Shown here in pieces: positions 236 to 60,900 of a DNA stretch of 64,000 nt; positions within the stretch are counted from its first letter, which is position 1; every line of letters starts with the position of its first letter. The DNA comes from Amoebophrya sp. A120 (lineage: Eukaryota; Protista; Dinoflagellata). Where the stretch lies: NCBI GenBank assembly GCA_905178155.1, contig CAJINV010000006.1:2088230-2152229 (forward strand), in the 5' to 3' direction. The notes below the pieces were generated by a model that saw nothing but the letters and a program-made list of their open reading frames with translations, did not search any database and was not told where the DNA came from. The translations under genes were made by a program, and so were the position numbers.

Positions 236-3200
236 TTGCCGGCGCGACAGGAAGAACCACGACCGAGCGACAGCAGCAGCAGCAGAAAGATAACCCCCAC
301 CGTAGATGAAGAAATACAAGTAGAGGCCAGTACCACCACCACGTCAACAATCCCGGTCCGAAATTCTCTGACCGGGGAGACAATTCTGGATTTTCCCAAG
401 CAAAAACTACCTGCCCCGCCCGTCTTTCCGTCTCAACATCTCGGTGCCGCCGTCCTTGCCTCGTCCTCGACCTGCTCTGCAGCAGTAGAGGCTTCTGCTT
501 CTCCTTCTCCGCCGGCTGGAAATAAATTTATTGGCTCTTGCTCTTCGTTGAATTTTTTATTACGAACCGAGTTTTATACCGACGAAAGGGAAAAACAAGG
601 AGCTACACGACGAGTCGGAGAAATAAGCAACAGACAGTGCAGTAGCACTGCACAAACTTCTACGGTTCAAGACTTGATCAACAGTGTTCGGGACCTGAAA
701 TCCATTGCTGCCTCGAGTGGCAAGGAGGTAAAGATTTCAGCGACGTACGAAAGTGGAGGTCCTGCTGCACCACCGCAAAAATCGCCCCCATTAGGTCGTC
801 CCAGCTTCCTGGACCCCCGAGAAAAGGTGGATTTCACCGGAAAAACCAACTACTTCGCAACCATCCTTCCCCAGACCCTGCTTGCGTCACACTTCCAAGA
901 GCTGGCGAATGACGCTTTAGTTGAGGACGCGGACTGCTTCTGGAAGAAGTTTTTCGGCGATGATGATGATGATATTGCAACAGGTAAAAATGTTGTTGCG
1001 GACGAAGATCTTCGTACAAAAACAAAACCAGCACCGGGGAGGTCGTCCTCACAAGGTCCACAACTTGATGCCGGTCTCGGTGGTCCTGCACCTGCTTTTG
1101 TCTCCCCTGCGGAAGTCGAATTCCACAGACAGCACGTGCTTTCCGCACTTCTTGATGAAGGTGCAAATGCGGACGTCGACGAAGCGCAATTGCTCCCACG
1201 AGGACGACACGCGATCACGACGGGGCAGCTGTTGCAGCGATTCATTCAGACGCAAAACTTGATTCTATCAAGTGTAAAAATGTCTGGGTCTGGAAGAATG
1301 CAACCTGTCATGCTAAATCTGAAGCATGCAAAAATCTGTGTTGCATGATTACCAAAAGTCGTCCTGTTTTGACCAAGTCGAGAGGGAGTTTCTCATGCAG
1401 GATAGGCATGAGAAAGATCGCACAGAATCTGTCATGCTAGGTCCTGCATTCCAGACCTTATGGGTCATGGAAAAGCTGCATGACAAGTCGCGCATTCTTC
1501 CAGACCCAGACATTTTTACATTTGATAGATTCCAGATGAAGACGAAAGGGCAGCAGTGAAAACCGCTTTGGAAACAGATACCGGGGTGTTCCACAAAACT
1601 GCTCAACTACAGGACGTGTGCAATATTAAAAGTGATGGCTCACCCTGGTCCCACCTTCAAGATACTACCGGCGCCACGCTGGAAATCTTTGCTAAAGATG
1701 CGTCCTCCGCGAAAATAAAACCGAGCGCAGATGACGAGATTTTTCAATCTGCGATTTGGTCCGAGACCTTACGGCAAGGTGGGGATAGGTACAAAGACTT
1801 GTTGTACTACAATTCTGGTGGTGAAAACAAGATGAAACGGAAGTACCAGCGCGACGCAGAAGACAGTCCTCTCATCCCGCCCACTTTTCTCAACCAACTC
1901 GCGAAATTGTTGCAGCAGGAAATTTTCGACGCTCCTGCTGTCCCGGAGTTTTCCGTGCCGATCTTGCATCAGATACTGGGTGGAGATGATGATGAAGGGT
2001 TGCTGAATTATGTTGGTTTCGAGGATAGTACGACGAGGCCCGCCAACGCTGGTGCTGGACCAGCAGCAGACGCAGGGGGATCTTTCATCCGGAGCAGGCC
2101 GCCAACAGTCAAATGGCGGGTGAAAGAGATGGAGATTCATTCCAACACTGGATTGAATGACATGGAAATGGGCGAGAATGGTAAGATTTCGGCCCGCACA
2201 AACAGGTACAGGACGGACCCGCCAATCACCGTTGAGGATTTCGTATCCTGTGCAAAAGTATCGTACTAGTAGAAACCAGCCATGCTCCGGCTGCCGCCGG
2301 AGCGCAAGGCTGTTGGGCCGGGGCAAGACTGTTTGCCGATCGGACCACAACCCCGCGGGCCTATGCACAACGAAACATATTGCGCCTCGCCAACCCGCAG
2401 GACCACTTGCGCGCTTCCCGCGCCTGTGGGCGCTCTGCGCAGGGAGCAGCTGCAAAGAACACCGGGGGCGAACAGAAGCCGCCCGGCGGGAGAGGGTAGC
2501 GCGAGAGGGTGGCGCGAGAGGGTGCGCGAGAGGGTGGCGCGAGAGGGTGGCGCGAGAGGGTGCGCGAGAGGGTGGCGCGGAAAGGCGCCGAACAAAACAG
2601 CTCCGCGAATGGCCTGCAGTGCCAAATATGGGTAGTGCCATGCGGATTCGCGCCCGCTTCTTTGTGTTTTACCCTCTCGCAGACCTCTCGCAGACCCTCT
2701 TTTTGGCCTCTTTTGGGGGTCCCCGCTAATAATCCGGCTATACTCGCGGGTAGAGGTCGACAGAGGTGGCCGAGAGGTGGCCAAGAGGGTCCGCGAGAGG
2801 TCGCCCCTTATTCGCGCCACCTCTCGCCACCTCTGTCGACCTCTCGCGCCCCCTCTTTTTGACCTCTCTGCACCCTCTGTGCCACTTAGGCGGCGCCTAA
2901 GGGTGGGCCCTTACTGTGGGCCTCATTCGCGCACCCTCTCGCGGACCCTCTCGAACGGGGTCCCGCGCCACCTCTCCACCTCTGTCGACCTCTTTTCTAC
3001 CTCTGTCGACCTCTTTTTTACCTCTCGGCCACCTCTCTGGGACCCTCTGTCTACCTCTTTTTTCGCATTAATATAATGTATAAGTAATCGCAATACAAAT
3101 TTCCTTAGCATTAAAAATAAAGTTTGTAATGCGGATTTGCCTTACGAAAAAAAATTGTAATGCATGACTGCGATGAGTACGAGTAGTACGATACTTTTGC

Positions 3201-5110
3201 ACAGGATATTTCGACTATGAATTCCGCCGCAGACTGTTCGACAAACAGATGTGGGACTTTGTATGCATTGCAAAAATGTCTGGGGCTGCTGGAAGGTAGT
3301 AGCAACTTGTGATGCGGATTGTGGAACGAACAATAACAAAAATCTGCGTTGCGTTGTCACCAAAAGACGTCAGATTTTTGTGTCCACGATCGGATTGTAT
3401 TTCTCATGCAGACTAGGCATCATGGAGAGACCTTCGCAGAATTTGTCATGCTTCGCATGCATTCCAGACCTTCTTTATTCAGATGCAAAAACTGCATGAA
3501 GAAAATTCTCCAGTCCCTCTCCTCGTCGAGACCCAGATCGATGATTTGCCATGCATACTTCGCCCTGAACGACAACAGCCTAGACACCCGCGTGATTCGC
3601 ATTTTTGGCCCCTATAGCGAGGACGTCGAGACCCAACTGCGCGGGCCGCGAGTCCGCAGTGACAAAGTCTACGTCTCGGTTGCTTACACGACCAAAATAT
3701 CAAGTGCAAAAATGTCTGGGTCTGGAAGAATGCATGTTTGTCATGCTTGTCTGGCATGACTCTTAAATCTGTCATGCACGTTACCCAAGAGCTCCATTTT
3801 TCTGTGATGCAGGAACGCAGTTTGTCATGCAGAATAGGCAACACCTAGAAGCTCAGAAACTTGTCATGCTGAGCCAGCATTTGTGGCCTCATCATGAGAC
3901 GCCACCCAGCATCACAAGTTTCCAGACCCAGACACTTTTACACTTGATACAAATTTGACGTGGAGAGGCTGCGAGACCACCCAGAATACGACTACTCGCA
4001 CCATTTTAATTTCAAATCAGACCTGCGCCCGCCGGTGAGTCATCGGTGGAGCGGGCAGACGCTGATTTTCACCTACCGTTTCGATTTCAAGCACCACCGT
4101 GGCCGGAGCGAAGCGATAGCGCGTCGGCAGCAGATACCGGAATGGGTGCGCGGAGCTGAGTATCAACTGCAAATATGTCTGGGTCTGGAAGAATGCCTGA
4201 CTTGTCATGCAGGTTTTCCATGACCCATGAGGTCTGGTATGTAGGACATAGCATGACAGATTTTGTGATAGTTCTATGATGCCTATTCTGCAAGAGAAAC
4301 TGCATCTCGATTAGGTCACAAGTGGACACCAGCTTTTGGTAATCATGCAATACAGATTTTTACATGATTCAGATTTAGCATGACAAGTTCCAACCTACTT
4401 CGAGAGCCAGACATATTTGCAATGCATACCGAACAAGTGCAGGCGGACGATGCAGAGTCGGAACGAGAGCGAAAAAATCAGGCGCTACGAAATGCAAATA
4501 TGTCTCGGTTTCCTGGAAGGATGTTGCAAGGTTTGTCATGCTTGTCTGGCATGAGTAAAGAGTTTGTCGTGCGTGTCCAAGAAAAGACGCTGTTGCTCGT
4601 TATGCAAAAACGCAGTTTGTCATGCGAGAACCGCAATAACAAAGCCTCGCAAATACTTCTCATGCTTGGCGGTGCATTACAGAGCATTCGCTATAATTCG
4701 CAGCCCAGCATTACAAGGTTCCAGACGACCCAGACATATTTGCATTTGATAGGAGTTCTACCAAAACAAACTTCTCCCGCGAATCTCCGGCTTCCAACTT
4801 GACGCCTTCCCGTCACGGTACGACTTTTATTCCGTCGACCGGCTTACGGGGAAGAGCGAAATCCAGTCTATCACAAGAAAAAGCGTTAACATTAACGGTT
4901 TTCACAGATTACAGTCATGCATCACAAACGTAGCCCAACATGCATGCTATGCATGACAAATTCTGGCACGTCTTGTGATGCATTTCTGCATCACAAATTG
5001 CGTTAACGTTAACACTTTTTCCTGTGATACAGTCGGGGAAAATGCAACGGTTGCGTCTCTGGTTGGAAAATGGGCCGGAGGATCAGGACGCGAGCCCAGG
5101 GTTTGACTAA
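236..5110 (+). CDS. Hypothetical protein split by 7 introners; start uncertain
   Basis: Removing each element plus one 5-bp repeat joins ORFs 236, 1556, 3349 and 3960 in frame (e.g. NLI|PDEDERAAVKTALE; VEDF|DYEFRRRLF) through to TAA at 5108-5110. No ATG located in frame. Confidence 0.7.
1266..1527. mobile_element. Introner family A
   Basis: TIR tatcaa.tgtaaaaatgtctgggtctggaagaatgc; DR gattc/gattc. Confidence 0.92.
2244..3208. mobile_element. Introner family B carrying Helitron-like insert
   Basis: TIR tatcctgtgcaaaagtatcgtact; DR tttcg/tttcg. Confidence 0.9.
2276..3087 (-). mobile_element. Helitron-like non-autonomous element, copy 1, nested in a family B introner
   Basis: On - strand starts ttacttatacatt, ends hairpin+atggctgg; host site gcga|tttctactagt, no TSD. 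Confidence 0.75.
3262..3557. mobile_element. Introner family A (degenerate)
   Basis: Degenerate TIR; DR ctttg/cttcg. Confidence 0.8.
3698..3949. mobile_element. Introner family A
   Basis: TIR; DR caaaa/caaat. Confidence 0.9.
4161..4428. mobile_element. Introner family A
   Basis: TIR; DR ctgag/ccgaa. Confidence 0.85.
4486..4751. mobile_element. Introner family A
   Basis: Degenerate TIR; DR ggcgc/ggagt. Confidence 0.8.
4869..5029. mobile_element. Introner family C
   Basis: TIR tatcaca.gaaaaag.gttaac.ttaacg; DR cagtc/cagtc. Confidence 0.9.
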
Positions 5111-5879: not shown

Positions 5880-6030
5880 CATGCAGTGCAAAAGTATCGT
5901 ACTCGTATAAATGCATTACGATTACAAATTTCCTCAGCATGAGAAATAAAATTTGTAATGCTGGTTTACCTTGAGAAAAACATTTGTAATGCATGATTGC
6001 AATACGAGTACGATACTTTTGCACAGGATA
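5880..6030. mobile_element. Introner family B (upstream of the tentative ATG)
   Basis: TIR; DR gtgca/gtgca. Confidence 0.9.
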
Positions 6031-6044
6031 GTGCAAATGCAATC

Positions 6045-9000
6045 ATGATCAGCAAGAACATCAGCATGGAGGTTAATATTTCCTCCCTCGAATCCAAGTT
6101 GTTTCTGTTGCGGAAAAAGCTACACAAAGTCCAAGACGAAAAGCGGTGGCAGCTGCAGCTGCGAGACCGGGTGTTCTCATCCTTCGTTCCTGCGAATTAC
6201 GAGTTCAGGCAGGAAAGTCGCAATATGGGGGTGCCAGGATTGAAATCGTCAAAGTTGAAATAGTTTGTGATGCATAAAACATATACCAGTTGGAAGCCCA
6301 ATTTCCAAGCGGCGCATGACAAATTTCGACTTCATCGAAATCCAGATTGTCATGCTGTTTAGCGAAAGAAGACATCCTTTGTCATGCTACTTTAGCAGCT
6401 CTATCCCAAATCCGAAGCAGGCTCACAATCGGCCTCACTTGCAATTCCTGCAAGACAGTCACTTTGTGCCTTGCATTTCATGCATCACAGATTATTTCAA
6501 CTTTGTCGGTTTCAATCCTGACACACCCATACGCAAGTGGCACTGGATAAAAACGCAGGCGGCGGTGCGCATTCAAAAATCCGTCCGGGGATATTTCACG
6601 CGGAAGTACCTGTCCAAAACCATCTACCCGGCTTTTTTCGACGAAAACACAAAATTGCTGAACGAGGCGAAAACAACCCGACTGCTGCCGCAACTACTGG
6701 AGCTCCGAAGGTATCAAATGCATGTACTTATACGTCTGGGTCTGGGTCTAGAATAAGCAACATGTAAACTTCTGATGCGCATCGTAGAGCAGACAGAAAT
6801 CTGTCATGCATGGACCGCAGAAGCTGCTCAGGTCTTGTCCTCACCCAAAGAGGGGACTAGTCATGCGCATTGGGCATTGCGAAACCTGCTCAACAAAACC
6901 TGTGATGCCTGGAATTGCATACCAGACATTCTGTGTCATGCACAAACAGCATAAGAATCTACCTCCAGACCCTGACATACACATTCACATATTTGCATTT
7001 GATAGAAGGCAGTGCCACTCGCTGCTGTACGATCGCGATGAAGAGAAGCGAAACGCCAGTGCGACTTTGATCCAAAAAACCTGGCGGGGCGCCCGCGTCT
7101 ATCGGCGGATTTGGGTTTGGAAGCGGTTTTTCTATACGCATTGCAAAAGCATCGTAGTCGTACTCGTATAAATGCATTACAAATTTATTCCTCAGCATGA
7201 GAAATAAAATTTGTAATGGGGATTTACCTTAGGAAGAAGATTTCTCATGCATATTTGCAATTGTACGATACTTTGGCGGTGCATATTCTACATCAAAAGA
7301 CAACTGGAGCTCGAAGTAGAGGCGGTGACAATTCTGGCAAGTTTTTGGATATCTTCACAGGAAAAACTGGTAACGCTCACAGACTTTGTGATGCGGCAAT
7401 GCATGACAAAACGTGCCCAGTAAATTTGTCATGCATAGCATGCGTACTAGGCTAATTTTGTGATGCATGGCTGCAGTCCGTAAAACGTTAACACTTTTCC
7501 TTGTGATATTCAAGAGGGTACAAGCAGAGATTCCTGTTTCAGCACCAGCTGGAGCTGATTCGTGCGGAAAACGCCGCGATTGTGATCCAGCGGTTTTTAT
7601 GAATTGCAAAAATGTCTGGGTCTGGAAGGTGGCAACTTGTCATGGTAAATCTGAAGCATGCAAAAATCTGTGTTGCATGAGTGCCAAAAGCTGTCCACTT
7701 TTGACCAAGATCGGCATGATAGGTATCTCGCAGAATCTGTCATGCTAGGTCCCGCATTGCAGACGACATGGATCATGGAAAATCTCCTGCGTGACAAGTT
7801 TACACTTTTCCAGACCCAGACATTTTTGAAATTGATAGTTTTGGCGTAGGTGGCTACGCGATCTGCAAATGATCGTCGGGCGTTTTACGATATCCTGTGC
7901 GAAAGTTGTATCGTTCTTGTAGCAAAAATCGCAAGCTTCACGCATTACAACACTGGTTCCAAAGGGTATTCAGCATGACAAATGTCACTTCTCATGCTGA
8001 GCTAATTTATTGTAATGCAAGCACTCATCACTAGCACGATGCAAAACATTTGCAGTGCATATACGACCTTCATGTCCGAGCAGGAGCGCAGCGAGATGAG
8101 CGACCTTTTCGAGAGACAGGACGAATGTGGAGGTGTTGATGATGCCGACCAGCATAATGATTCATCGCGGGGACGGCACTACAACAAGAACAACAACCTC
8201 CACCTCTACGGCTTGTTACTAGAGCAGCATGATGAGCAAGATCATACCTTTTCCTTTGGCGAGGGAGAAGCAAGTGAAAAACACGACCTTCAAGAACCTC
8301 CGGCACTCCACGACCTGCGTGGAGAAAAAATCGGTGTAGGTGTAGGAGGAGCGCCTTCAACATCCTCAGGCGGGGCAAGAACCCGAACCGCAATAACTAC
8401 GCCGACAACGACAACCTCCAAGCGGGGCCGGAGTCGGTTTGGCGCTGTGCGAATGCAGAGTGCGCACTGGAGAGAGAAGAAGGACGAGAGCGAGGAAATA
8501 GTAGAACTTGATGGGCCGCCCGCTCTTGATCTTGAGAAACATAAACACCACGCCAATGACACGACAGCGGCAGATGAACAAGTGAGTGTCTCAGCGGCGA
8601 CCTCTTGCTCGGCTCCCGCTCCGCCCAGCACATCTTCCTCCTCTTCTTCTAAAACAAAACTCTTGGAGCGCGTCCGGACCGCGAAAAGTGTGGTGTTTGA
8701 AGATGAGGGAGAGCGACCAGAAATAAAAAATGGTGGAGCGAACAATTTCTCGGCGCACAGCTGCACTACGGCTACAACAACTTCCTCCAACGCAATGAAG
8801 TCCTCTTCCTCCACGCCAAGGGCAACAGCCATCCAAGGCAAAAACGCTGCTGGCAAGAATCACGACACAAGAACTACGACCGCTATACAACAACGGACAA
8901 CTACTACTCGTGGTGTACCTGCCGCGAAGATGGCATCAGGTGTTGAAGCTGTAACTTTAAAGACGGCACCAGATTCAAAAACTAGCGGTACAACAACCTC

Positions 9001-9742
9001 CAGTACTAGTAGCAGGAGAACAAATACAACTTCGCAAACGAGAAAATCGAAGAACCAGCATGCTTGTGCTTCAACAAGGATGAGGACGAAAGAAGGAGAC
9101 AACAATCAAACTGCAGGCGTTCCCGGAGGTCCTGCTGGCGCGGTACCAGCGCCCTCCTCGTCTTCGACCCGACCAGGTGTAGTCGGTTCTGCTACGGGCG
9201 GCGGGGGCAAAAAGTTGAAGAAAAAGACCACGCGGACGAGGATTGATTTGGACGCCGCGAGGACTACAAGCACGCTGGACAGTGAAGACGTCGTTGTCCT
9301 CGGAACTAGTAGTACAACGGAGAAGAAAGGTGCAGTTGGAGGAGCAGGACAGCAACGTCAAGAACGGAACAGTGACATGAACCAGGTCAAAGTCTCCAGC
9401 AGCTCCGCCAGTGTCGAGGCCCTGGTGCAAGACGAGAAGGAAGGTGACACACCGCAAAGCCAAAATGATAGGACGAAAGCAGCAGTTGTTGTGGTAGAGG
9501 CAGCTGAAAGCAATGGTGTGGACGTCGATTGCCCAGGACCACCTGCTTCAACAGAAGAAGATGAAGCTCCTCAATTTGTCCACCCGATGCTGGATATAGA
9601 TTTGGATACCATTCAACATCTGGAAAGTAGAGGTGATCGTGATGGTTCCGCGCACCCCGGGAGGTCCTCTGCACTCGACCTGTTTCTCGACGTAAAGCAG
9701 TATTCGCCGCTGTTGAATACGAAGGACGTGTTTTCTCCATAG
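6045..9742 (+). CDS. IQ calmodulin-binding motif protein with long S/T-rich low-complexity C-terminus
   Basis: Spliced frame gives AAVRIQKSVRGYFTRK, SATLIQKTWRGARVYRR, AVTILASFWRGYKQR and AAIVIQRFWRRWLR, then joins ORF 8015..9742. 6 introners in the CDS; start ATG tentative. Confidence 0.8.
6224..6531. mobile_element. Introner family D
   Basis: TIR tatggg.gtg.caggattgaaa.cg.caaagttgaaata; DR cgcaa/cgcaa. Confidence 0.92.
6712..7004. mobile_element. Introner family A
   Basis: TIR; DR gaagg/gaagg. Confidence 0.88.
7135..7285. mobile_element. Introner family B
   Basis: TIR; DR ttcta/ttcta. Confidence 0.88.
7350..7508. mobile_element. Introner family C
   Basis: Degenerate TIR; DR ttgga/ttcaa; frame restored. 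Confidence 0.78.
7598..7837. mobile_element. Introner family A
   Basis: TIR; DR gtttt/gtttt. Confidence 0.9.
7891..8061. mobile_element. Introner family B
   Basis: TIR; DR tacga/tacga. Confidence 0.88.
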
Positions 9743-14292: not shown

Positions 14293-14427
14293 CAGAAACC
14301 TAGAATTCTTTCCTCCAACGTCTACGTCTGCGTCGGCGCGCATGTTGACCACGTTGACCACGACAGAAGCGATTGGAAATTCACTTTAAAAAAAACAGCT
14401 CTGTCGAACCAAAATTTCCGGCAAACC

Positions 14428-47100: not shown

Positions 47101-50100
47101 CCAGTGCAAATATGTCTGGGTCTGGAACCTTGTGATGCTAAAATCTTACTGATGGGCGCACTGCAACGGGCAGCCAAGCATGACAAATCTCTCGGCTGGT
47201 GCTATTGTGTTTCGTTTTCCGCATGACAAGCTGCGTTTTTGCATGACTGACAGGAAGCCTGTTGCCTGCTTATGCATCACAGATTTATGAGTCATGCCAG
47301 ACAAGCATGACAAACTCGCACTCTTCCAGACCCAGACATATTTGCATTTGATACGACCCAAACTGCATCAACTTCCTCGGAACGCGGGTGGTTTTCACGT
47401 ATGGAAGCGTCAGGTTTGAAATCGTCAAAGTTGAAATAATTTGCAATGCATAAAATGCGACACAGAAAGTGACTCTATTGCAGAGGACCCACGGGAGGCA
47501 GATTATAGTCCTGGTAAGGGTCAAAAGTTGAACTGCCAACTAGCATGACAGAGGGCAGCTCTTTTGCCCTAAACCGCATGACAGACTCGCTTCCAGGACC
47601 GGGAAAATTTGTCATGCACCGACTACAAACTGTAGGTCTAACTGGTATGCGTTTTGTGCATGACAAACTATTTCAACTTTGACGATTTCAAACCTGACAC
47701 ATCCATATCACGGACAACGAAAATAATGGCTCACCATCTTCTCACGGACAGAAGTTTATCCACACATATTTGGAGTTCATTCCCGGCGGCACGATCTCGG
47801 ATTTGGTCCAGACGTTTGGCTATGGAATGCAAAAGTATCGTATTGGTAGTGGTACTGCAATCATGGATTACAAATCTTTTTCGTGAGGTGAATCAGCATT
47901 ACAAATTTTAATTTTATTTCTCATGCTATAGAAATAGAAATTTGTAATGCATTTTTTATACGAGTGCGAGACTTTTGCAATGCATATTGGCCGGATCGAG
48001 GACAAGTTTTTGCTCCGTTCCTTGACCTACCAGGTGACTTTGGGGCTGCAGTACTTGCACAAGAAGGGGGTCGTCCATCGGGATCTGAAGGGATCGAACG
48101 TGCTGCTAACCGTGTATGAATTGCAACCGTAGCGTACTCCTGCTACTCGTATAAATGCATTACAAATTTCGATTTCCTCAGCACGAGAAAGAAAATTTGC
48201 AATGCTGATTTACCTTAAGAAAAAGATTTGTAATGCATGACTGCAAAAATACGAGCACGATACCGATACTTTTGCACAGGATACCGTGTCCGGCGAAGCG
48301 ATTCTGTCCGACATGGGGATATGGAGGCGTCAGGTTTGAAATCGTCAAAGTTGAAATTACTATCTATTATATTCATGCGAAAAAAGAGGTCTACAGAGGG
48401 TCGACGGGAGGTGGCCGAGAGGTCAAAAAGAGGCCACAAGAGGTCAAAAAGAGGTCGACAGAGGTGGAGAGGTGGCGCGGGAGGTCATTCGAGAGGGTGG
48501 CCGAGAGGGGGCGCGGGTATAGCCGGCCGAACCGTTCACCCGAAAGCCGCGCCTATAGGGACCAGAGGGGGCTGAGAGGGTCCCGAGAGGGTAAGCGATA
48601 GGGGGATAGGGGTGCCGAGAGGTTGTGCGAATAAGGGCGAACCTCTCGCGCACCCTCTGGGCCACCTCTCGGCCACCTCTGTAGACCTCTACCGGCGAGT
48701 ATAGCCGGACTATTAGCAACACCTCTCGGGAGAGGTCAAGAAGAGGGCTTGCGAAAGGGTAAAAAAGACCCGAAGCCGCCCGGCACGCGGCCGATTTTGT
48801 TGGGACTGTTTCATGGCGCAGGCCCACACCTCTTGCGCTACCCTCTCGCGCACCCTCTCGCGCACCCCCTCGCGCCACCCTCTCGCGCTAACCGCTCGCG
48901 CCAACAGTTTCCGCCGGGAAGCCAGTTGGGAGGGCGGGGGCGGGTGTGTATGTGATCAACAGAGGGCAGCGCGGTCCCAGTTCTGCTTCGGCACCTATGC
49001 CGAGGCGGCTTCTCTTCGCCCCCGAGCTTCGTTGCAGCTGCTCCCTGCGCATAGCGCCTGAAGGCGCGGGAAGTGCGCAGGAGGCCCTGCGGGTTGACAT
49101 AGCGCAAACCGGCGCCAGTACTTCCTTCGACCTATCACGCTGTCCGTAAACTAAAGCCCTGTCGCTGCGGCCCGATCCGCAAATAGTCCTGCCCCGCCCC
49201 AACAGCCTTGCGCCCCGGCGTCAGCCGGGGCATGGCTGGTAGTTTGTCATGCATAAAATGCAGCCCTCAGAGTACCTGTCTTGCAGAGTAGGCAAGTGTG
49301 GCAGATTGCAAGCCTGTTGAGGAGAAGAAACTGAGCAGCTAAAGTAGCACGACACAAGGCGTCTTTCTTACCCAAACAGCATGACAAACTGGGTTTCGGC
49401 TCTACCCAAATTTGTCATGCGCCACTTAGAAACTGGGTCACTACTTTTATCCATTTTATGCATTACAAGTTATTTCAACTTTGACGATTTCAATCCTGAC
49501 GCTTCCATAGGGGACGGCGTTTATCGCGGTATCACAGTGCACAAGAACTCCCCGTCGTCCCCCTCATTTGTACTCATATCGTATGGACAGCAATACGAAC
49601 ACCACACCAGGTGGACGCTATGCATGACAAGTTCATAGCCTGAGTGTAGTGAGGTTCAGTAGTGTTCCCAAATTTGTGATGCAGACAGCGCCACAGACTA
49701 GCAACTGGATTTGACATTTTCGCATGACAAATGACCATGAGGGGGACGCAGAGCAGTTGTGCACTTTCATACGCGGGGAGCAAAAACGCAAATTTCTATG
49801 CGGGAGCGACTTTGTCCGCATTTCAGGGAAATGGGCGGGGTGGGAACAATAAACGGAACTCGCTGACCATACCCGGAAGTGGTCAACATTCGCAGCAAGA
49901 CAAAGACCAATTGGAGGAAACCATGCAGAATTTACTAAACGAGACCACCAACCAACTAGGGCAGTCCGCCACGATACTGATGCAAACCATGTGCGGCTCC
50001 ATTCCCTGGATGGCTCCTGAAGTGTTAACCGGAAACAACACCGGTCAGAGCAATGCTGCTTCGGGCTACAAGAAAACCGCAGATATTTGGTCTCTAGGGG

Positions 50101-50480
50101 GCTTAATCATCGAGATGGCCTCCGGATCGCCGCCCTGGAGTGAGAAGAAATTCGACAACCCGATAGCGCTGATGATGGCGCTCAGTATGGGCAAGGGGAT
50201 ACCAGGATTGCCGGAAGACAACAGCGCGCTCGGGGAATTCCACTTCAACAGCGAGAGTTTTTTCGAGGACGAAGAGGATGAAGAAGAGTATCACGGTGCA
50301 ACCGGTGGTGACGCAGCCACCATATCTCCGGGCGCAAAGTTCCTCCAGGACTGCTTCCACCGAGATGCGGCCTTGCGCCCAAGCTGCACCGAACTGCTAG
50401 ACTATGACTTCATCCGAGATATGCGAGATCTGCACTACAGACCTGTTTTGATCACTTCGCCGTTAAATGTAGATCTTTGA
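44185..50480 (+). CDS. Ser/Thr protein kinase, STE11/MAP3K-like, probably N-acylated
   Basis: After removing 12 introners: IGKGSHGTVY, IACK, KEVDLLQRLNHPNCINFLG, LEFIPGGTI, HRDLKGSNVLL, DMG, GSIPWMAPE, ADIWSLG, RPSCTELL. N-terminus is MGCNQS. Confidence 0.92.
44852..45065. mobile_element. Introner family C
   Basis: TIR; DR cagga/cagga; similar to 37444-37654. Confidence 0.9.
45440..45598. mobile_element. Introner family B (degenerate)
   Basis: TIR ta.gcattgcaaa; DR eroded; frame restored. Confidence 0.72.
45676..45967. mobile_element. Introner family E
   Basis: TIR tatcctgag.aaaa.cgtcccc; DR ctcgt/ctcgt. Confidence 0.9.
46000..46304. mobile_element. Introner family H (related to D)
   Basis: TIR tatgaaagcctcag..tggaaatcctcaaagtggaaataat; DR ccacg/ccacg. 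Confidence 0.92.
46430..46693. mobile_element. Introner family A
   Basis: TIR; DR ggagc/ggagc. Confidence 0.9.
46906..47056. mobile_element. Introner family B
   Basis: TIR tatgcattgcaaaaga; DR gatga/gatga. Confidence 0.92.
47098..47353. mobile_element. Introner family A
   Basis: TIR; DR ccacc/cgacc; splits kinase HPN. Confidence 0.9.
47400..47707. mobile_element. Introner family D
   Basis: TIR; DR tcacg/tcacg. Confidence 0.92.
47821..47986. mobile_element. Introner family B
   Basis: TIR; DR ttggc/ttggc. Confidence 0.9.
48115..48283. mobile_element. Introner family B
   Basis: DR ccgtg/ccgtg. Confidence 0.9.
48320..49509. mobile_element. Introner family D carrying Helitron-like insert
   Basis: TIR tatgga.gcgtcagg.ttgaaatcgtcaaagttgaaat; 4-bp DR ggga. 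Confidence 0.88.
48357..49239 (+). mobile_element. Helitron-like non-autonomous element, copy 3 (diverged), nested in a family D introner
   Basis: Starts ttactatctatt; hairpin gccccggc-gtca-gccggggc at 49212-49231; ends CTGG; site gttgaaa|tagtttg, empty site in 18078-18387. Confidence 0.75.
49529..49771. mobile_element. Introner family I
   Basis: TIR tat.a.agtgcacaa; DR cgcgg/cgcgg. Confidence 0.88.
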
Positions 50481-51940: not shown

Positions 51941-54900
51941 ATGGAAGTCCGTCCGAAGGAGCGGATGAACATTTCCGCCGCGTACCACATGGCGATGACG
52001 CACGCCGAAGAAGGCATGCAGCCCATGGCGGTGCCGCTCCCCCAGAACTTCAGCTCGTTCGAAGAGGCGGTAGAAAAGGCGGAGACCTTCCAATATCCTG
52101 AGCAAAAACGTCCCCAACCCATAGTCAAGTTGGTAAATCTGCAACACAAATCGCCCAGCTTTGGAAGTTGTGCATGACAAGTTTCCGTCTGTAGTATAGT
52201 GTTGCTTAGCAAGGAAAGCCGCATGAGAAAGCCAATCTCTCATCATATTTACAGCATTACAAATGCCAAATCACGATTTGAAACGCCTCTCGTCATGGGA
52301 ATGCGCATTACAAATGTTCCTGTCGTTGCGCATTTGCATTACAGCCTTGGGGTGGGGACGTTTTTGCTGTGGATATCCAAGACGCGGTGATCTGGCAGTA
52401 CCACCAAGCGAAGAAGCGAAAGGTCATCGCCAAGGGCGTGCCGCCGCGGCAGACCGGGCTGGTAATAAACGGCATCGGGCAGGAAAAAATCGAGGACATC
52501 TCAATGGAAAGCTACGCCCTGACCTCCATTTGCGCAAAGCCGAGATCAAACGGCGCCGCTGACGCACCCTCCGAATTTAGAAAAATGGCACAGGACATGC
52601 GGGCGGGGAGATTGAGAACGAGGAAAAGGAAGTTTCCCAGCAGAAAATTCCGTATTGTTATTGATTGTTTCTACGTACAATTTTTGTTACAGCGGCATTT
52701 TGGGTGGTTTGCGTTTGGTTGTTTGCATGACAAACCGCTCTTCCTTGATTGTCGTGTCACAACCAGAAACTACTTTGTGATGCATATACTCAATAGTTCT
52801 TTCATTATCGTTATCGTTATCAAGCAGCGCGTCAAATAATGATAGAATCCAAAAGCAAAATAAATCAAAAACATCACAGAGGACAAGGACATTCTAGACG
52901 GCAACATCTCCTCCGACTCCGAGGGCCACCCGGGGTACGGCTCTGACAAGGAAAAGGAACGGGCCCGTGGTGACTACATTGCGCAACAAAAAGCCCAGCA
53001 GGGCTTAAACAAGGCGTATGTGAGGCCGAATCGACACAGCAGCATGTCCTCCCGAGACGGGTCGGATTCCGGTTTTCTGTCCGTCGGCGCGAGTCCCATG
53101 AGCTACCTGCAAACCCCGGACCGGACGCCGGAGAGTGAATTTGGGAGAACGCCCGGCACGAATATGGATTTTTATCCCACGAAAAAACTGTTTCACTGTG
53201 GTGCTTTTGCAAGATCTGCATCACAAGTTTGTATACACATGTCACGGAAATAAATTTGCCATGCGCGCTTTCCAAGGGAAAACAGGCTTCAAAATCCAGA
53301 ATGTCTTGCAAGTGTAGCAAGACAAACACTTTGGTGCTTCGTTCTCTGCATCACAAGTTCACAGGGAAACAGTTTATTTTCCTTGCGATAATTGTACCGG
53401 GGGAAATAGCAGCATGATGGCGTTGACAAACGACGCACACAGCGACGCGGGCGACAGCGTGGATAACCAGAGCTTGGCGCTGAGTATTTCTTATTGCAAT
53501 CATGCATTACAAATCTTTTTCTTGAGGTAGATCAGCATTAGAAATTTCAGTTCTCATGCTGAGGAAATTTGTAATGCATTTATTATACACATGAAACTAT
53601 CAGGCCAACTCGCGGCGGGTGATGGGAAAGTAGCCTACAACAAGAGAAAATTCGCCGCGCAAAAAGCCGAGCGCGTATGCATCACAAAAGTATCGTACTA
53701 GTAGAAATCGCATTACAAGTTCGGTCAGCATGACAAGAGGAATCTGTCATGCTAATTTACCTACACAACTAGATTTATAATGCATACCTACACAACTAGA
53801 TGATGATGATGATGATGATGATGATGCATAAACGCGATTAGTACGAGCGCGATAGTTTTGTAATGCATAACGGGAAGCCGCGAATAAAATCTTGGCGGCC
53901 CAGAAGAACGGGTTTGGCAAACAGCAGTTTTTGATTGACCACAGAACACCGACGAGACTGACGGAAATCCTGGAGCATAGTACTAAATGTGGTTTTCATA
54001 ATTGCTATTGCTCTGTAAAAAATGCTGGCGTGGTAATAAGGCAATAGGAGTGACGAGAACTTGTGAAGTAGATGTTGATCATGCACAGCATGCCAGCGCT
54101 GTTGTTCTTGTTGTATTTTTGCATGACACCGAAAATAAGAAATTCCGACACTTCAAGAATAGAGAACAAATAAATCGATTTTGTTCATCATTTAATCAAA
54201 CCCACTTTATCAACAACAAACAGACAAGAGAATCGACAAGCACCCCCTCCCTGTGATTACCATCATCCTCCCGCCCCGCGCTTCCTCCCTCATCAACATT
54301 TGCAACTGCATGCCGTTTATCAACGGCAAATATGTCAGTCTGGGTCTCGAAGCTTGTGATGCTGAAGTATGCATAAGTCAGCTGCTTTCAAGTGCAGCCA
54401 AGCATGACAAGTTTAGTTGACACCGTCTGATTCGTAGCACGCATGACAAACTGCTTGGTCGCATCTCAAAAAAGTGGCGCCTTTGCTGGCTGTATGCAAC
54501 ACAGATTTTTCAGGAATGCAAGACATGCAACACAGATTCCACTTTTCCAGACCCAGACATGTTTGCAACTGCATGCCGTTCTTCGAAGAGCACAAGTGGA
54601 CCCCGTTAACCCGACAGGAGAAGATGTTTTTTAACAGCTACCGTATCAACTGCAAATATATCTGGGTCTGGAAGAGTGTAAACTTGTCATGCAGGTTTTC
54701 TATGACCCACGAGGTCTGGAATGCGGGACCTAGCATGACAGACTCTGTGAGGTCTCTGCCATGCCTATCCTGCATGAGAAACTCCCTCCCAACGTGCTCG
54801 AAAGTGGACAGCTCTTGGCACTCATGCAACACAGACTTTTGTAAGATTCAGATTTAGCATGACAAGTTGCACCCTTCCAGACCCAGACATTTTTGCATTT

Positions 54901-57900
54901 GATATACCGCACGCCGAAACACTTCGAAAAGGCGCTGTTCAACAAAAAACACAAATTCCGGATCCAATTTGTGGACAACGCGAGTCAAATCGAGAACTGG
55001 CTCTCCGTATCAAATGTAAAAATGTCTGGGTCTGGGAACTTGTGATGCTGGGTAGCGTCTCATGATGAGGCTACAAATGCTGGCTCAGCATGAAAAGTTT
55101 CTGAGCTCCTAGGTGTTGCCTATTCTGCATGACAAACTGCGCTTCTGCATCACAGAAAAGCGCAGCTTTTGGGTAACGTGCATGCCAGATTTCAGAGTCA
55201 TGCCAGGCAAGCATGACAAACATGAATTCTTCCAGACCCAGACATTTTTACAGGTGATACTCCGTTTGTGCAGTGTTTCTGGACCCGAAGATGGAAAACG
55301 ACTGGCAGCTGAACGAGTACCCCTTCGCGAAGCACGTCCACTTGTTCACGGCGGTTAGAGGGTTTTTCGTAAACCATGAGAAAGCGCCGGTGAAGAGCAC
55401 GATCTGCGCGAACTGCGACCTGAAGGAGTTAACCTTGCCGCAATCCGTCCGCTATCCTGTGCAACAGTATCGTACTCGTACCAATGCAAGTTTAGCATTA
55501 CAAATCTTGTTTCCATGGCAAATCTGCATTACAAATTTTATTTCTCATGCTGACGAAGTTTGTCATGCATTTATACGAGTACGATACTTTTGCACAGGAT
55601 ATCCGCCACAAGGACGACCAAGTATTGGCGAACTTCTGGCTGGAAATGGAGCGATTTCTGCAAACGATATGAAAGCCTCCGGTTGGAAATCCTCAAAGTG
55701 GAAATAATTTGCAATGCAAAAAACCACTCCAGTTGAAGCGCCACTTCTAGGCGGCGCATGACAAATTCCCCGGGCATCTCAAAGTATGTCTGTCATGCGG
55801 GTTAACGCAAAGGGGTGGTCTTCTCTCGTGCTAATCAGCATTCCAAGTCTGAACCCGTAGAAGGACAATAGGCGGCCTCCATTGCGTCCCCTGCAATACA
55901 GTCTTTTTTGCGTCGCATTTCATGCATCACAAATTATTTCCACCTTGAGGATTTCCATTCTGAGGCTTTCATAAACGAGAAGTCACATGGCGTACATGCA
56001 GCCGAATTTGAAGTTGATTGACGCGGCAAGCGTGAAGCGGGTGGTGCCCAAACCCGACTGGACGGAGCAGCAGAAGAAGGAGTTTGAAGAGCGGGTCGAA
56101 TCCAACAAACAGCTGCAACTGACCATCACGCACAACAATTTGGAAAACTCCGGGGCGGGCGTGATGGAGGTGGATAAGTCCAGGCCGCTGATTACCGAAA
56201 CGATTGACAAAAATTTACTCATCGTCGACAAGGAATCCCTAGTATCCTGTGCAAAAGTATCTGATACTCGTATTGCAATCATGCATTACAAATTTTTTTC
56301 TCAAGGTAAATCTGCATTACAAATTTCACTTCTCATGCTGAGGGAGTTTGTGATGCATTTATAGATACGAGTGCGATACTTTTGCAGTTCATACCTGAAC
56401 CCCCGGTTCTACCGACCTGATTTCGACCTGCAGCGAAAGCGAATGGGGAAACCAACCCTGGCGGAGGAGCAGCAGGCCCTACCGATCGCTCTGAAGCAAA
56501 AGATCGAGAAGGGAGAGAAGTTGACGCAAAAAGAGTTGAACGATTTGAACAAGGAGGGAAAAGTATTCCGAGGAAAAACGTCCCCACCTATCCAGAGTCA
56601 TCAACTTGGGAAGTCTGCTAGACAAATCAACAAGCTTTGCTTGCTGCGCATGACAAATCTAACGAAGGCTCGCCGTAATGTAGTCCGATGTTTAGCTTCT
56701 AGCTCAGAAGCTGCATCACAGATCTAGCCTATCATGCTGATTCGAGCATCGCAATAAATCATCTCAAAACACGACTAGAATAAAACTATGCTTCTCAGCA
56801 TGGGGCTCCGCATGACAAATATTTTCAGCATGCAGATTTGCATGACAAGTACGAGGTGGGGACGTTTTTGCACAGGATAGAAAGTGCCGGATTTCGATGC
56901 GGAGGATGAAAACGGCTTCGACTGGGCGGCACAGCCGATTGCCGCACACACCTTGGACATCGGCGCCGGGCGGCAGATATCAATTGCAACTATGTTGTCC
57001 GGGTCTGGATGAACACAGCTCAGGTGTTTGTCAAGCTGTCTCTGCTTGACTCTGAAGGTCTGGCATGCAAGCCCTAGCACGAACACAGGTTTTTGCAAGG
57101 CCTGCCAATGCGTGATCCGCATGACAAACTTCCGCTTTGTTCGGTGACAAGAAATAACGGGATAGTTTTCTTGCTGTTTATGCATGACAGATGATTTTCC
57201 TGTGATCTAAAATGCGCATCACAAGTCTGCATGTCTACTCCAGACCCAGACATATTTGCGATGCATAGGAGGTCAAGATGCACATCAACGACGAGGAGGA
57301 CAAGACGAAATTTGACAAACAGATCATGAAGCTGATCGAAGACGTATTATTTGGCTTCTGATTTTTTTTCGATAGTTTCAATTTGTCAAACGACCCTTGT
57401 TTGATTGTATTTTCATGCTATTAATTTTTGAACAACTCCCATATACAACACAACATCATAAACAGTGCATCCTCAAGAAGAAGAAGGAGGACAACAGACC
57501 GGAGTTTATCGGAAAGAAAACCAAATAGCTTGGCACCTCCCAATAGCAGCTCCTTTCCTTCTTCATCTTCGTCTTGCATTTGTTCAAACTTGTAAAATTG
57601 TCATGCACCTTATGCAATGTAAATTTCCTGTACATGTACAGAATGCATGACAGATTTCGCTAACTTGCTGTGTCCAACTTGTCATGCTACACTAGGATTG
57701 AAGGCAAGTTTTGTCATGGAGAGACTGCATTTGTACATGTACAGGAAATTTACTGTGGATACACCTAGTAATTCTATATTCATCTCCGGTGCTTTTTTGT
57801 ACCAGTACAACCGTGTGACTGAACGCAGATGTTGAAAAAAAGAGAACAAGGCTCTTCTAGGAACAAGCCCTGGGAGGTGATGATTTTTTCCCCTGTACAC

Positions 57901-60900
57901 GCTTTCGGAGGTGGAACGACAAAATAGGCCGGGAAGAACTCCACAAGGAGAACTTCGTGAAGTGGGTGAACGACAACTTTGACTGTGACAAGGCCTATAC
58001 GGCAGGGAAATTGCACGACGTTGGCTTTTATGCATTGCAGAAGTAACGTCCTAGTATAAATTGCATTACAAATTTTGGCAAGAAGAAAAGTGGAATTTGT
58101 AATGCTGTTTTAACTTAGGAGAGAGATTTATCATGCATATTTACAATTAGTACAAGCACGATACTTTTGCACAGCATAGCTTTGGCCACGCACTAAAAAC
58201 TGACATCGGCTACTACTACCACAAGGACATCAAGCTGGACGCGTTTAAGAGTAAGAAATACGCCAGACACCGCTGTCGAATGAACTATCCTGAGTAAAAA
58301 CGTCCGCCCCAAAGTCAAGATGGGGATTTTGCAACAGAAATCGAGAAGTTTTGGAATTCGGATTCACGCATCACAAGCTGCAGTCCCGATAGTGTAGTGC
58401 AGGCTATAGCAAGGACAAACGCACCACAGATCCATCTACTTAGCCTGGTTACAGCATTGCAAATGCCAAAACACGACTAGAAATGCCTCTCATGGAGATG
58501 CGCATTGCAAATCGATTCCTGTCATTGCGAGTCTGCATGACAACTCTGGGGTGGGGACGTTTTTACAAATGATATTCACACCGAAGTAATGCTCGTGGAG
58601 TGGTACGACCGCCCCGGCGCAAAAATGATCAGCTACATCACAGTATCGAATGTAAAAATGTCTGGGTCTGGAAGAATGCAAGATTTGTGATGCAGGTTTT
58701 CCATGACCCATGAGGTCTGGAATGCGAGACCCAGCATGACAGATTTTTTGAGGTCTCTACCATGCCCTTCCTGCATGAGAAACTCCCTCTCAACTTGGTC
58801 AAAAGCGGCCAGCTTTTGGTACTCACGCAACACAGATTTTTGCATCATTCAGATTTAGCATGACAAGTTCTAACCTTGTTCCAGACCCAGACACTTTTAC
58901 ATTTGATACACAGCAGAAGACAAGGCCAAGCAGGAACGCGACGCAGAGTATGCTGCAGCGGAGAAGGCGCAAAAGCGAGCGGCCAGGGACGAGAAAAGAA
59001 AGGAGCATATCGTAAGGAAAAATCCCCCCTCCCCATATCAAAAAGGCAGCCTTTTGAAAATTTGTAATGCTGATTTGTGGTCACAAATTAGGTCAGTGTT
59101 GCAAGAGAGCAAGGCCAGAGCGTGCGCCGCCTTACGCAGGCGGTTTGTAATGATGCGCCAACAGGGCAGAGCAGACGTCTGCCATGCTGAGTGCCTATCT
59201 CTAGCCAGCCCCTTCCAGGCACTGTAAGCATCTGCCTGCAGTCCTCCTCTGGAAGACAAAGCTGATTTGTGCACACGAATCCCGCAACACAGATTGCCAT
59301 TTTGATATGGGGGAGGATTTCTCAGTTCGATAAAACAGGAGAAAAAAAACGGTGGCGATTGGGACAACTACAAGAAAAACGATGAATGGAAACAGTCTTC
59401 CAGCTGGCTATGCATTGCAAAAGTATCGTACTCGTAGTAATCCTAATCGCAATCATGCATTACAAATCTCCATCCCAAGGTAAAACAGCATGACAAATTC
59501 CATTTGTCATGCTGAGCTAATTTGTTTTGCAGTTACTACTAGGGCGATACTTTTGCAGTTCATACTGACAACAAGGAAACAACACTTACAACTCGTCCAG
59601 CTGGAATAACAGCAGTGGAAACAACTACAATTCAGGAAACGACTGGAACCAGGGAGGTGGTGCTGGTTCTTGGGGTGCTGGCGACTGGAACAACAAAACG
59701 ACTTCCGGGTACAACAATAATTCCTCAAGTTGGAACAATGACTACGGTAAAACTAGCTGGAAGAATGACGATAAAAAAGACAACTGGGACAACAGTTACA
59801 ACAAGTACGACAAAACTTCTTCCTACGAAAATGCTGACAAGAAGGCAGCGTCCTACAACGCGTTCAACGCCCCTGCCGCACCAGCGGGAGAGCCGAGTGA
59901 TAAAAAGAATTCCTTCGAGGTTGAAGAGTCTGTTGTCCCCCGACCTGGTCGCGGCGGAAGCAAAGAAAAAGAGAGACAAAAGTCCCCAGAGCGAGGACGG
60001 GGAGGCAGTAAGGAGAAGGAGCGCGGTACTACGTCTGCTGCTAGCAGTTCTCAAAACAAGTTTCTCTTCTACGAAGGTAGAAATGAGAACACCCGTCGAG
60101 AGGACGACGTGGAGCGGTACCATCGATCGAGTAAGTACAGGGAAGATTATCATGATAAAGATGACTACAACTACCGGGGTGGCAGCAAGCACAAAGACTA
60201 CAACCAGCCATCTCGGTACAGCCGCAGCCGGGGGCGGGATAGAGGAGCCAGGAGGTCAAAGGAAAAGGAGGACGAGAGAGACCGGTACGACCGCCGCGAC
60301 CGTAGTCGATCCAAAGAAGTGAATAAAGAGGAAAACAACGGCCGGGGGAGGAGTCGGTATGGAAACAGACGGGACGGGAGTAAGGACAAGGATATCAAAG
60401 ACAAAGGGGATATCAAGAAAGAAACAACTACCTCCCGCGACGCAAAATCGAAAGCAAAGGACAATATCACCGCCAAGGAAGAGAAGAAACCCCCACCTCC
60501 TCCGCCTGCTAAGAAGAAAGCTGCAGCTGCTGCGTCCTCTTCCTCAAGTTACAAACCCGGTGGCGGCGTGGAGGAATATTTGGCGGCGAAAGCGAAAAAG
60601 GAGGCTGAAGAGGCGGCGGCGGCAAGTGCGAGGGAGGTGAAATCTAGTCCGGTTATTGACTACACGAAGGTTAGAGCGGCGGATTTGTTGGCGGATGGAG
60701 ACAGGTATGTTTATATTGCAATCATGCATTTACAAATCCTTTTCCTAACGTGAATCCGCATTACAAATTTCATTTCTCACGCTGAGGAAATCGAAATTTG
60801 TAATGCATTTATGCGAGTGCGATACTTTTGCAGTGGATACGTTTTTCATCGTCATGCCACCTGAACTTGTCATGCAAGTTGAACAAATCAAAATGAAAAT

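What the first reader, a model, noticed from the sequence alone, without database searches (positions are those of the whole stretch)
1266..58908. Removal appears orientation-independent
Seen: close relatives occur in both orientations inside + strand CDSs, with frame restored either way (1266-1527 vs 58644-58908; 3698-3949 vs 55008-55259; 46000-46304 vs 55668-55973). Known: spliceosomal introns are polar. Inference: recognition relies on the TIR stem and the two-way motif rather than a donor, branch point and acceptor.
Basis: partly seen in the sequence, partly recalled or inferred. Interest (0 to 1): 0.7.

Follow-up and report, generated by a model that had tools for sequence, protein, structure and literature searches.

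The report
Transposon introns spliced in either orientation
Small transposon copies inside genes of the marine parasite Amoebophrya are cut out of its RNA exactly, whichever way round they sit and without GT-AG ends, at a fixed stagger around their inverted-repeat ends that a relaxed spliceosome likely reads.

Summary
The window is Amoebophrya sp. A120 DNA (source names), and the repeats are its published introner elements (Farhat 2021). The three named pairs are true inversions (86-92% identical reversed, ~60% forward) in + strand genes. RNA-type contigs lack all six: two as joint rows, four by exact length sums. Six families are spliced both ways. Each of 14 joints removes the element plus one 5-nt target duplication. 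Imperfect duplications fix one rule, N-TAT...ATA-NNNN, the only offset that reproduces all three annotated proteins; Farhat calls the sites variable. No G+1 or AG is needed, but inverting a TIR element leaves its ends unchanged. The cut is polar, N-TAT matches the local donors GTAY (6 of 6), and two-way introners are known in spliceosomal systems (Polarella, Aureococcus). Most likely a relaxed U2-type spliceosome reads signals in the symmetric ends (0.55); a Euglena-like stem-guided machinery is the main rival (0.3). Splicing efficiency was not measured; one superfamily is skewed 69:41. One earlier scan note (another genome, 8-bp duplication) covers the general phenomenon.

The parts
1266..1527 (+). 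Introner family A, reference orientation; intron 1265-1531; target duplication 5/5
   Evidence: RNA joint 1260>1528, skip 267, 4 of 4 runs
58644..58908 (-). Family A inverted, in CDC73; intron 58643-58912
   Evidence: 86% reverse identity to 1266; RNA contig length and P0002
3698..3949 (+). Family B, reference orientation; duplication mismatch at position 5 puts the cut at or before position 4
   Evidence: RNA joint 3692>3950, slide 4
55008..55259 (-). Family B inverted, in CDC73; intron 55007-55263
   Evidence: 92% reverse identity
46000..46304 (-). Family C, inverted relative to 55668, in the kinase gene; intron 45999-46308
   Evidence: 2208-nt RNA span and P0001 839/839
55668..55973 (+). 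Family C, reference orientation, in CDC73; intron 55667-55977
   Evidence: RNA piece resumes at 55973; P0002
4161..4428 (-). Family A inverted, in the same gene and RNA contig as 1266; cut limited to duplication positions 2-4
   Evidence: RNA joint 4157>4431
3262..3557 (+). Family A; cut limited to positions 4-5
   Evidence: RNA joint 3260>3562
4869..5029 (+). Family F, one orientation
   Evidence: RNA joint 4863>5030
7350..7508 (-). Family F inverted; cut limited to positions 4-5
   Evidence: RNA joint 7348>7513
6712..7004 (+). Element whose -1/+4 ends happen to read GT...AG
   Evidence: GT..AG at cut +4
56243..56393 (-). Family D inverted; cut fixed at exactly position 4
   Evidence: RNA piece ends 56241; P0002 residue 584 excludes position 5
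2244..3208 (+). Family D element carrying a nested ~800-nt GC-rich insert, still removed exactly
   Evidence: RNA joint 2237>3208, skip 970
560..5110 (+). Host gene 1 (5' part runs further upstream), 7 element introns
   Evidence: no Pfam match for 4 exon pieces
6004..9741 (+). Host gene 2 region; 7 element introns between 5880 and 8061
   Evidence: joints; open frame 8066-9741
16020..23163 (+). Host gene P0003 (1263 aa, no Pfam): 13 element introns, both orientations of family A, 1 canonical intron
   Evidence: annotated protein only; no RNA laid here
44186..50480 (+). Protein kinase gene P0001 (839 aa), 12 element introns
51941..61062 (+). CDC73 gene P0002 (1264 aa): 17 element introns and 5 canonical introns

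Best explanation
These are non-autonomous inverted-repeat DNA transposons (Amoebophrya A120 introners) that insert into exons in either orientation with a 5-nt target duplication and are removed from the RNA at one fixed stagger, 1 nt before the 5' TAT and 4 nt after the 3' ATA, likely by a relaxed U2-type spliceosome that reads signals built into the symmetric ends. Shown: insertion with a 5-nt duplication (empty sites), removal from RNA in both orientations, the fixed -1/+4 cut, and no need for G+1, AG or a matching duplication. Inferred: the 5' end N-TAT serves as a donor that kept U+2/A+3 but lost G+1; the terminal stem brings the ends together; the 3' cut is set by distance from the ATA (the A at -7 is a candidate branch point) and not by an AG. 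Because both ends are inverted repeats, either orientation presents the same signals, and removing element plus one duplication restores the pre-insertion mRNA at any length and phase.
For: 14 of 14 element joints skip element+5 nt. Five joints with imperfect duplications allow cut positions 4-5, 0-4, 2-4, 3-4 and 4-5, which share only 4. Position 4 is the only one of six offsets giving 0 differences in all of P0001-P0003. 42 of 86 window elements have RNA support, and six families (A, B, C, D, E2, F) are supported in both orientations. Lengths mod 3 are even, 14/14/14. The CDC73 ortholog in a related assembly (L046) has three extra elements where the window has a single 5-mer. Canonical donors are GTAT x5 and GTAC x1; element introns have T at +2 in 99%, A at +3 in 99%. 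Farhat Table S4: all nine leading A120 non-canonical sites start NT and all nine A25 sites TT. A120 keeps U2/U4/U5/U6 and nearly all spliceosomal proteins; U1 was not detected. In the yeast P complex G+1 pairs with G-1 and A-2 with the branch A, while U+2 pairs with U6 A51, so joint loss of G+1 and AG with U+2 kept fits one relaxed contact set (inference). End variants are polar: 5' end 3 changes at positions 1-2 and 11 at position 3; 3' end 9 and 3 (Fisher p=0.016, post hoc). Two-way introners are reported in Polarella and Aureococcus.
Against: No lariat, branch point or snRNP data were obtained, so the machinery is not shown. T+2/A+3 are also the transposon's own terminal bases and may be conserved for transposition. 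One RNA-supported element starts CAT (5880), so +2 T is not absolute. Intronic duplication copies do not drift towards G+1 (6 gains, 5 losses) and only weakly towards AG (17 gains, 8 losses, p=0.11). The yUnAy fit around A-7 is weak (T at -9 in 48%). The architecture (paired trinucleotides with fixed spacers) closely parallels Euglena's code, whose authors favour non-spliceosomal factors. The RNA evidence is contigs from 2 samples of 1 study labelled 'RNA?', and the annotated proteins may rest on the same data. Orientation is skewed in families A+B (69:41, p=0.01).
Confidence: 0.55

Rival explanations
1. A separate, Euglena-like machinery (non-spliceosomal or a distinct complex) recognises the paired terminal stem, cuts at fixed spacers on either side (1 nt and 4 nt) and ligates the exons. 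This is the structural part of the first reader's idea.
For: The ends are nearly symmetric in transcript orientation. Strong terminal stems are predicted in both orientations (z -12.8 and -8.2); terminal pairing is above 0.5 in 35 of 40 folded RNA-supported elements, mean 0.79 vs 0.78 by orientation. No G+1 or AG. A 970-nt nested element is still cut exactly. The Euglena code N3-CDG...CH'G-N5-6 was shown genetically to need paired motifs and spacers. U1 was not detected in A120.
Against: The offset lines TAT up with the canonical donor GTAY (6 of 6), and A25, with a different TIR (TTA), also keeps T at +2. 5 of 40 RNA-supported elements have weak predicted terminal pairing yet fit the same skip length. 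End decay is polar (p=0.016, post hoc). 15% of canonical A120 introns share the IR/DR build, whereas hybrids are rare in Euglena (0.8%).
Confidence: 0.3
2. The internal two-way motif (TGTNATGC / GCATNACA) is the main intron-defining signal, bound by a dedicated RNA-binding protein that marks any element copy for removal.
For: Present in 86 of 86 window and 226 of 226 related-locus elements at 14-17 per kb, against 0.08 per kb in coding and 0.13 per kb in intergenic DNA; both directions are equally common (158:157); it also occurs in 4 of 6 canonical introns.
Against: Same-direction copies recur at 30-34 nt spacing and about 30-49 nt from each end, as expected of subterminal transposase sites on DNA (recalled knowledge). 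Every non-canonical intron here is transposon-derived, so the association does not separate the two roles. The related-locus detector required the motif. Two of the canonical introns with it carry element remnants (seen by eye). The motif cannot by itself set a nucleotide-exact cut.
Confidence: 0.1
3. The elements are excised at the DNA level (like ciliate IESs) in expressing nuclei, so orientation is irrelevant and no RNA splicing is needed.
For: Removal restores the empty site exactly, and the runs are labelled only 'RNA?'.
Against: The same contigs also skip canonical GT-AG introns (pieces 52651>52880). DNA-type run X5 contigs run through whole elements (45440-45598, 49530-49771, 56978-57267; table 8). 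The cut is staggered with the transcript's polarity.
Confidence: 0.03

Closest known systems
Amoebophrya A120 introner elements (Farhat et al. 2021, PMC7789003)
   Same: Same organism by protein source name; TAT-starting IR with an A run, 3-5 nt direct repeats, ~240-nt non-canonical introns, hairpins, co-oriented genes.
   Different: [quoted passage not shown] 3 legend; Fig. S23 legend 1-5 nt), and it makes no statement on element orientation. Here the offset is single (-1/+4) and both orientations are spliced. Its figures could not be seen.
Polarella glacialis introner-like elements classes 2, 3, 6, 7, 8, 10 and Aureococcus introners (bioRxiv 2020.10.14.339549; Huff 2016 via PMC10228655)
   Same: TIR/TSD transposons that create introns in either orientation, with a bias towards one.
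   Different: They must recruit GT/GC/GA and AG from the duplication or the element, so target sequence is constrained. Here the duplication bases are free and neither G nor AG is needed.
Euglena nonconventional introns (PMC12501133)
   Same: Paired terminal trinucleotides, fixed unpaired spacers shorter at the 5' end, direct repeats at junctions, no GT-AG.
   Different: Spacers 3 and 5-6 nt and CDG/CH'G in Euglena vs 1 and 4 nt and TAT/ATA here; Euglena needs a purine at the exon start (about 60% purine here); unrelated lineage; Euglena introns are reported to leave as circles, unknown here.
Fritillaria borealis MITE-derived non-canonical introns (via review PMC11282704)
   Same: TIR/TSD-derived introns with non-GT-AG ends, attributed to a changed U2 spliceosome.
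   Different: Dominated by AG-AC/AG-AT ends; here the terminal bases are unconstrained.

Membership tests
Amoebophrya A120 introner elements | In the A120 genome | tested here: met
   Three exon queries match 100% to proteins named Amoebophrya sp. A120 by the source
Amoebophrya A120 introner elements | Terminal IR starting TAT, with an A run after ~7-10 nt | tested here: met
   End profiles of 86 window elements
Amoebophrya A120 introner elements | 3-5 nt direct repeat at the borders | tested here: met
   5-nt repeat; single copy at three empty sites against L046
Amoebophrya A120 introner elements | Repeated in families and removed from RNA | tested here: met
   Families; RNA joints
U2-type spliceosomal intron | GT (or GC) donor and AG acceptor | tested here: not met
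   7 of 312 are GT..AG; +1 and -2/-1 are near background
U2-type spliceosomal intron | Donor U+2 and local donor consensus | tested here: met
   T+2 99%, A+3 99%, T+4 96%; canonical donors GTAY 6 of 6; also the TIR's own bases
U2-type spliceosomal intron | Branch point adenosine and lariat | not testable with these tools
   Only contigs cover these genes; the one raw-read run laid (X9) did not cover exons. A-7 is 98% conserved but the yUnAy fit is weak
U2-type spliceosomal intron | Dependence on snRNPs | not testable with these tools
   Needs experiments; components present
Euglena-type nonconventional intron | N3-CDG...CH'G-N5-6 code with purine exon start | tested here: not met
   Code here is N1-TAT...ATA-N4
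Euglena-type nonconventional intron | Terminal stem in the pre-mRNA | tested here: inconclusive
   Predicted in 35 of 40; prediction only
Euglena-type nonconventional intron | Excised as a full-length circle | not testable with these tools
   No raw reads on these genes
Non-autonomous TIR DNA transposon (MITE) | TIRs, TSD, no coding capacity, insertion polymorphism | tested here: met
   copies up to 97% identical in a related assembly
Non-autonomous TIR DNA transposon (MITE) | Cognate transposase identified | not tested
   No whole genome held; a TIR element with Copia/Gypsy-like ORFs in A120 is reported

The most novel reading that the evidence does not exclude
Amoebophrya has evolved a second, GT-AG-free splicing code, N1-TAT...ATA-N4, in which a dedicated machinery measures from a transposon's paired ends. 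Any insertion of the element, at any exon site and in either orientation, becomes a perfect intron. This would converge independently on Euglena's nonconventional splicing.
Probability: 0.3. Interest if true: 0.8.

Novelty: new variant of a known kind. Interest (0 to 1): 0.5.

Why it matters
How Amoebophrya removes more than 60% of its introns without GT-AG has been open since 2021, and the published account leaves the borders undefined. A single rule (N-TAT...ATA-NNNN, both orientations, no sequence demand on the target) defines the substrate. It predicts where a branch point should lie, makes reporter and lariat tests straightforward, would correct junction calls and family counts (reverse-orientation copies may have been counted as separate families), and explains why these elements spread with so little cost. 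The elements themselves, and two-way introners in other algae, are already known.

Tried and rejected
No whole genome is held, so the genome-wide orientation test could not be run. The substitute was 138 loci of one related assembly found with a family A/B end pattern: 354 elements detected, 317 after removing duplicates and edge cases, 226 with a called host strand, 91 uncalled and dropped. The strand caller scored 45 right, 0 wrong, 4 uncalled of 49 in leave-one-gene-out, on + strand genes only. The detector found 67 of 86 window elements exactly. 68 of 312 elements had no family call. No listed holder was on record as RNA. In one search the DNA-type run swamped the joint table (15 rows shown, 2091 hidden), so joined forms in DNA could not be excluded from that table. 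One of 15 joint rows (3927>4407, depth 2.2, one run, 23-nt side, between two TIRs) was set aside as a likely repeat chimera. Contig depth cannot give splicing efficiency. Rejected: elements as whole palindromes; the direct repeat as the splice signal (2/5 matches still spliced at 45440 and 57507 by RNA length, 17764 by protein); offsets 0-3 and 5. A first model with a wrong end for 45440 gave 2210 nt and was corrected to 2208 using the RNA piece end, so that one border was fitted to the data. YTRAY counts at 3' vs reversed 5' ends showed no 3' excess (154 vs 178 of 312). Drift of intronic duplication copies to GT/AG was not significant. Rfam found nothing in the window. Earlier-finding look-ups by place and by sequence were empty. 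Huff 2016 is not held. A statement of two-way splicing or a fixed offset for Amoebophrya was not found in searches; subscription papers (such as the Curr Biol versions), figures and bioRxiv supplements were not visible and may bear on this.
Full report
What the window is. A self-comparison shows dozens of dispersed 110-330 nt repeats on both strands. Three long exons match 100% to proteins that the source names Amoebophrya sp. A120: a kinase (P0001, 839 aa), CDC73 (P0002, 1264 aa) and a protein with no Pfam match (P0003, 1263 aa). I catalogued 86 elements by script and by eye. They start TAT and end ATA with few variants, have terminal inverted repeats and are flanked by a 5-nt direct repeat. 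These are the introner elements of Farhat et al. 2021 (PMC7789003; I read passages, sections 10, 11 and 16, and supplement parts 2-3 of 5; figures not visible).

Checking the observation. The three named pairs are 0.86, 0.92 and 0.88 identical in reverse and about 0.60 forward. The gap widens when the TIRs are removed (0.84/0.92/0.84 vs 0.47/0.53/0.46), and each element is only 0.58-0.61 identical to its own reverse complement, so orientation is a real property. All hosts read on the + strand. All six elements carry stops in all three frames. The frame is restored by removing the element plus one 5-nt repeat, not the quoted span alone.

RNA evidence. Four RNA-type contig sets (2 samples, 1 study; labelled 'RNA?') were laid on 900-8300. 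Of 15 joint rows, 14 correspond to the 14 elements there, and each skips element+5 nt. The 15th is a low-depth row between two TIRs. Elements 1266 and 4161 (opposite orientations, 82% identical reversed) are both skipped in single contigs of X2 and X3. On 44100-61100 the joint table was swamped by the DNA-type run, but the contig pieces give exact sums. The kinase contig spans 2208 nt over 45066-50830, equal to the model with 11 elements removed (one border was corrected using the RNA piece end). The CDC73 contigs in X1 and X4 leave 764 and 825 nt across two gaps, equal to the sums of the skips mapped from P0002. These contigs also skip canonical introns, while DNA-type contigs of X5 run through whole elements. 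In all, 42 of 86 elements have RNA support, 14 more only annotated-protein support and 30 none. Six families are RNA-supported in both orientations. Contigs cannot give efficiency or strand; strand comes from the reading frames.

The cut is fixed. A perfect repeat lets a junction slide, but imperfect ones pin it. Five joints allow repeat positions 4-5 (3262), 0-4 (3698), 2-4 (4161), 3-4 (4486) and 4-5 (7350); only position 4 is common, and both orientations contribute. Of six offsets, only position 4 reproduces P0001, P0002 and P0003 with no difference (P0002 decides it; the annotation may derive from the same RNA). The intron is therefore N-TAT...ATA-NNNN. The repeat need not match: elements with 2 of 5 matches follow the same rule. 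Lengths mod 3 are even (14/14/14). Farhat's Fig. 3 legend calls the sites variable relative to the hairpin, which is what slidable junctions would look like. Their Table S4 nonetheless shows all nine leading A120 non-canonical sites starting NT.

Origin. A pattern scan returned 138 loci from one related assembly with copies up to 97% identical. Its CDC73 ortholog (L046) has three elements in an exon where the window has a single 5-mer (one of the three is cut by the contig end), which confirms insertion with a 5-nt duplication. A TIR element with Copia/Gypsy-like ORFs is reported in A120 (PMC12130899, passages); that such integrases make 4-6 nt duplications is recalled knowledge.

Orientation counts. 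Among 312 transcript-oriented elements (86 window, 226 related loci with predicted host strand), 244 had a family call: A 46:29, B 23:12, C 6:10, D 27:22, E 10:2, E2 5:5, G 8:2, I 8:8, J 4:9, and F, H, K 2:1, 1:1, 2:1. A and B together give 69:41 (p=0.01, post hoc; window alone 11:8). Both orientations are tolerated, perhaps not equally; Polarella classes show the same kind of bias.

What is recognised. Position +1 and the last four intron bases are free: G at +1 in 96 of 312, AG ends in 21, GT..AG in 7. But inversion cannot test signals that lie inside inverted repeats, and three results point to polar reading. First, the cut is staggered 1 nt/4 nt with the transcript. Second, N-TAT aligns with the 6 canonical donors mapped (GTAT x5, GTAC x1), and A25, whose repeats start TTA, also has T at +2. 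Third, end variants are distributed differently at the two ends (5': 3 at positions 1-2, 11 at position 3; 3': 9 and 3; p=0.016, post hoc, small numbers). In the yeast P complex G+1 pairs with G-1, A-2 with the branch A, and U+2 with U6 A51 (bioRxiv 212811, passages), so losing G+1 and AG together while keeping U+2 is a coherent relaxation. Against this: those bases are also transposon termini, 5880 starts CAT, drift towards GT/AG is not significant, and the branch-site fit at A-7 is weak.

Stem and motif. Terminal stems are predicted in both orientations (35 of 40 folded), but five weakly paired elements are still removed. The motif TGTNATGC/GCATNACA is in every element, almost absent from coding and intergenic DNA, equally common both ways and spaced 30-34 nt. 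It may be a splicing mark or a transposase site; nothing here separates the two.

Comparison. Intron creation in either orientation is reported for Polarella and Aureococcus introners, which still use G-donors and AG (bioRxiv 2020.10.14.339549, passages; Huff 2016 only second-hand via PMC10228655; Gozashti 2022 PMC9860276, passages, allows for opposite-orientation insertions). Euglena's nonconventional code, N3-CDG...CH'G-N5-6, is the closest architectural parallel and is thought not to be spliceosomal (PMC12501133, passages). Fritillaria introns are attributed to a changed U2 spliceosome (review PMC11282704, section 6). PMC12787238 (passages) added nothing.

Verdict. The elements are published. 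Their two-way removal and the single -1/+4 code were not found in print. Mechanism: relaxed spliceosome reading the symmetric ends 0.55, separate stem-guided machinery 0.3, motif-led definition 0.1, DNA excision 0.03. Interest 0.5.

Noticed in passing
window 2276-3077, 35837-36676, 48359-49241; L054: A GC-rich (63% for the first copy) ~800-880 nt repeat with internal GAGAGGGT-type repeats is nested inside three different introners (87%, 67%, 69% identical); it looks like a second mobile element that targets introners. Two of the host introns are RNA-supported as removed.
   Followed up: partly
window 54299-54317 and 54562-54580: A 19-nt direct repeat: the CDC73 exon just upstream equals the 3' end of element 54318-54575, which ends ATG, not ATA; the skip length still fits the rule.
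   Followed up: partly
window 57611-57761 in 57507-57899; 53484-53603; 60705-60977: Elements nested in another element and element remnants inside canonical GT-AG introns; the 60705 intron and its remnant are conserved in L046.
   Followed up: partly
L046 (CDC73 ortholog, 84-87% nucleotide identity): Three insertions in one exon that the window lacks: recent, lineage-specific intron gain.
   Followed up: yes
loose ends at 46000, 55974, 58819, 58908: Raw RNA run X9 has 50-180 reads each joining element ends to flanks from other loci, one also in X4: some copies elsewhere stay in abundant RNA (UTR, non-coding or unspliced; orientation unknown).
   Followed up: no
window ~24000-25200, 33100-34500, 42200-43900, 62500-64000: Long GC-rich (60-72%) intergenic blocks lie upstream of genes and lack the intron motif.
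   Followed up: no
window 10778-10794; loose end at 45029: Two plant-type telomere-like units (CCCTAAA) in intergenic DNA, and an element end elsewhere followed by TTTAGGG-like repeats.
   Followed up: no
whole window: All genes with evidence lie on the + strand, in line with the published co-oriented gene blocks.
   Followed up: partly
window 6540-7600: Host gene 2 has several IQ-like (calmodulin-binding) motifs by eye; gene 25980-32100 has p25-alpha-like stretches by eye (labels recalled, not tested).
   Followed up: no
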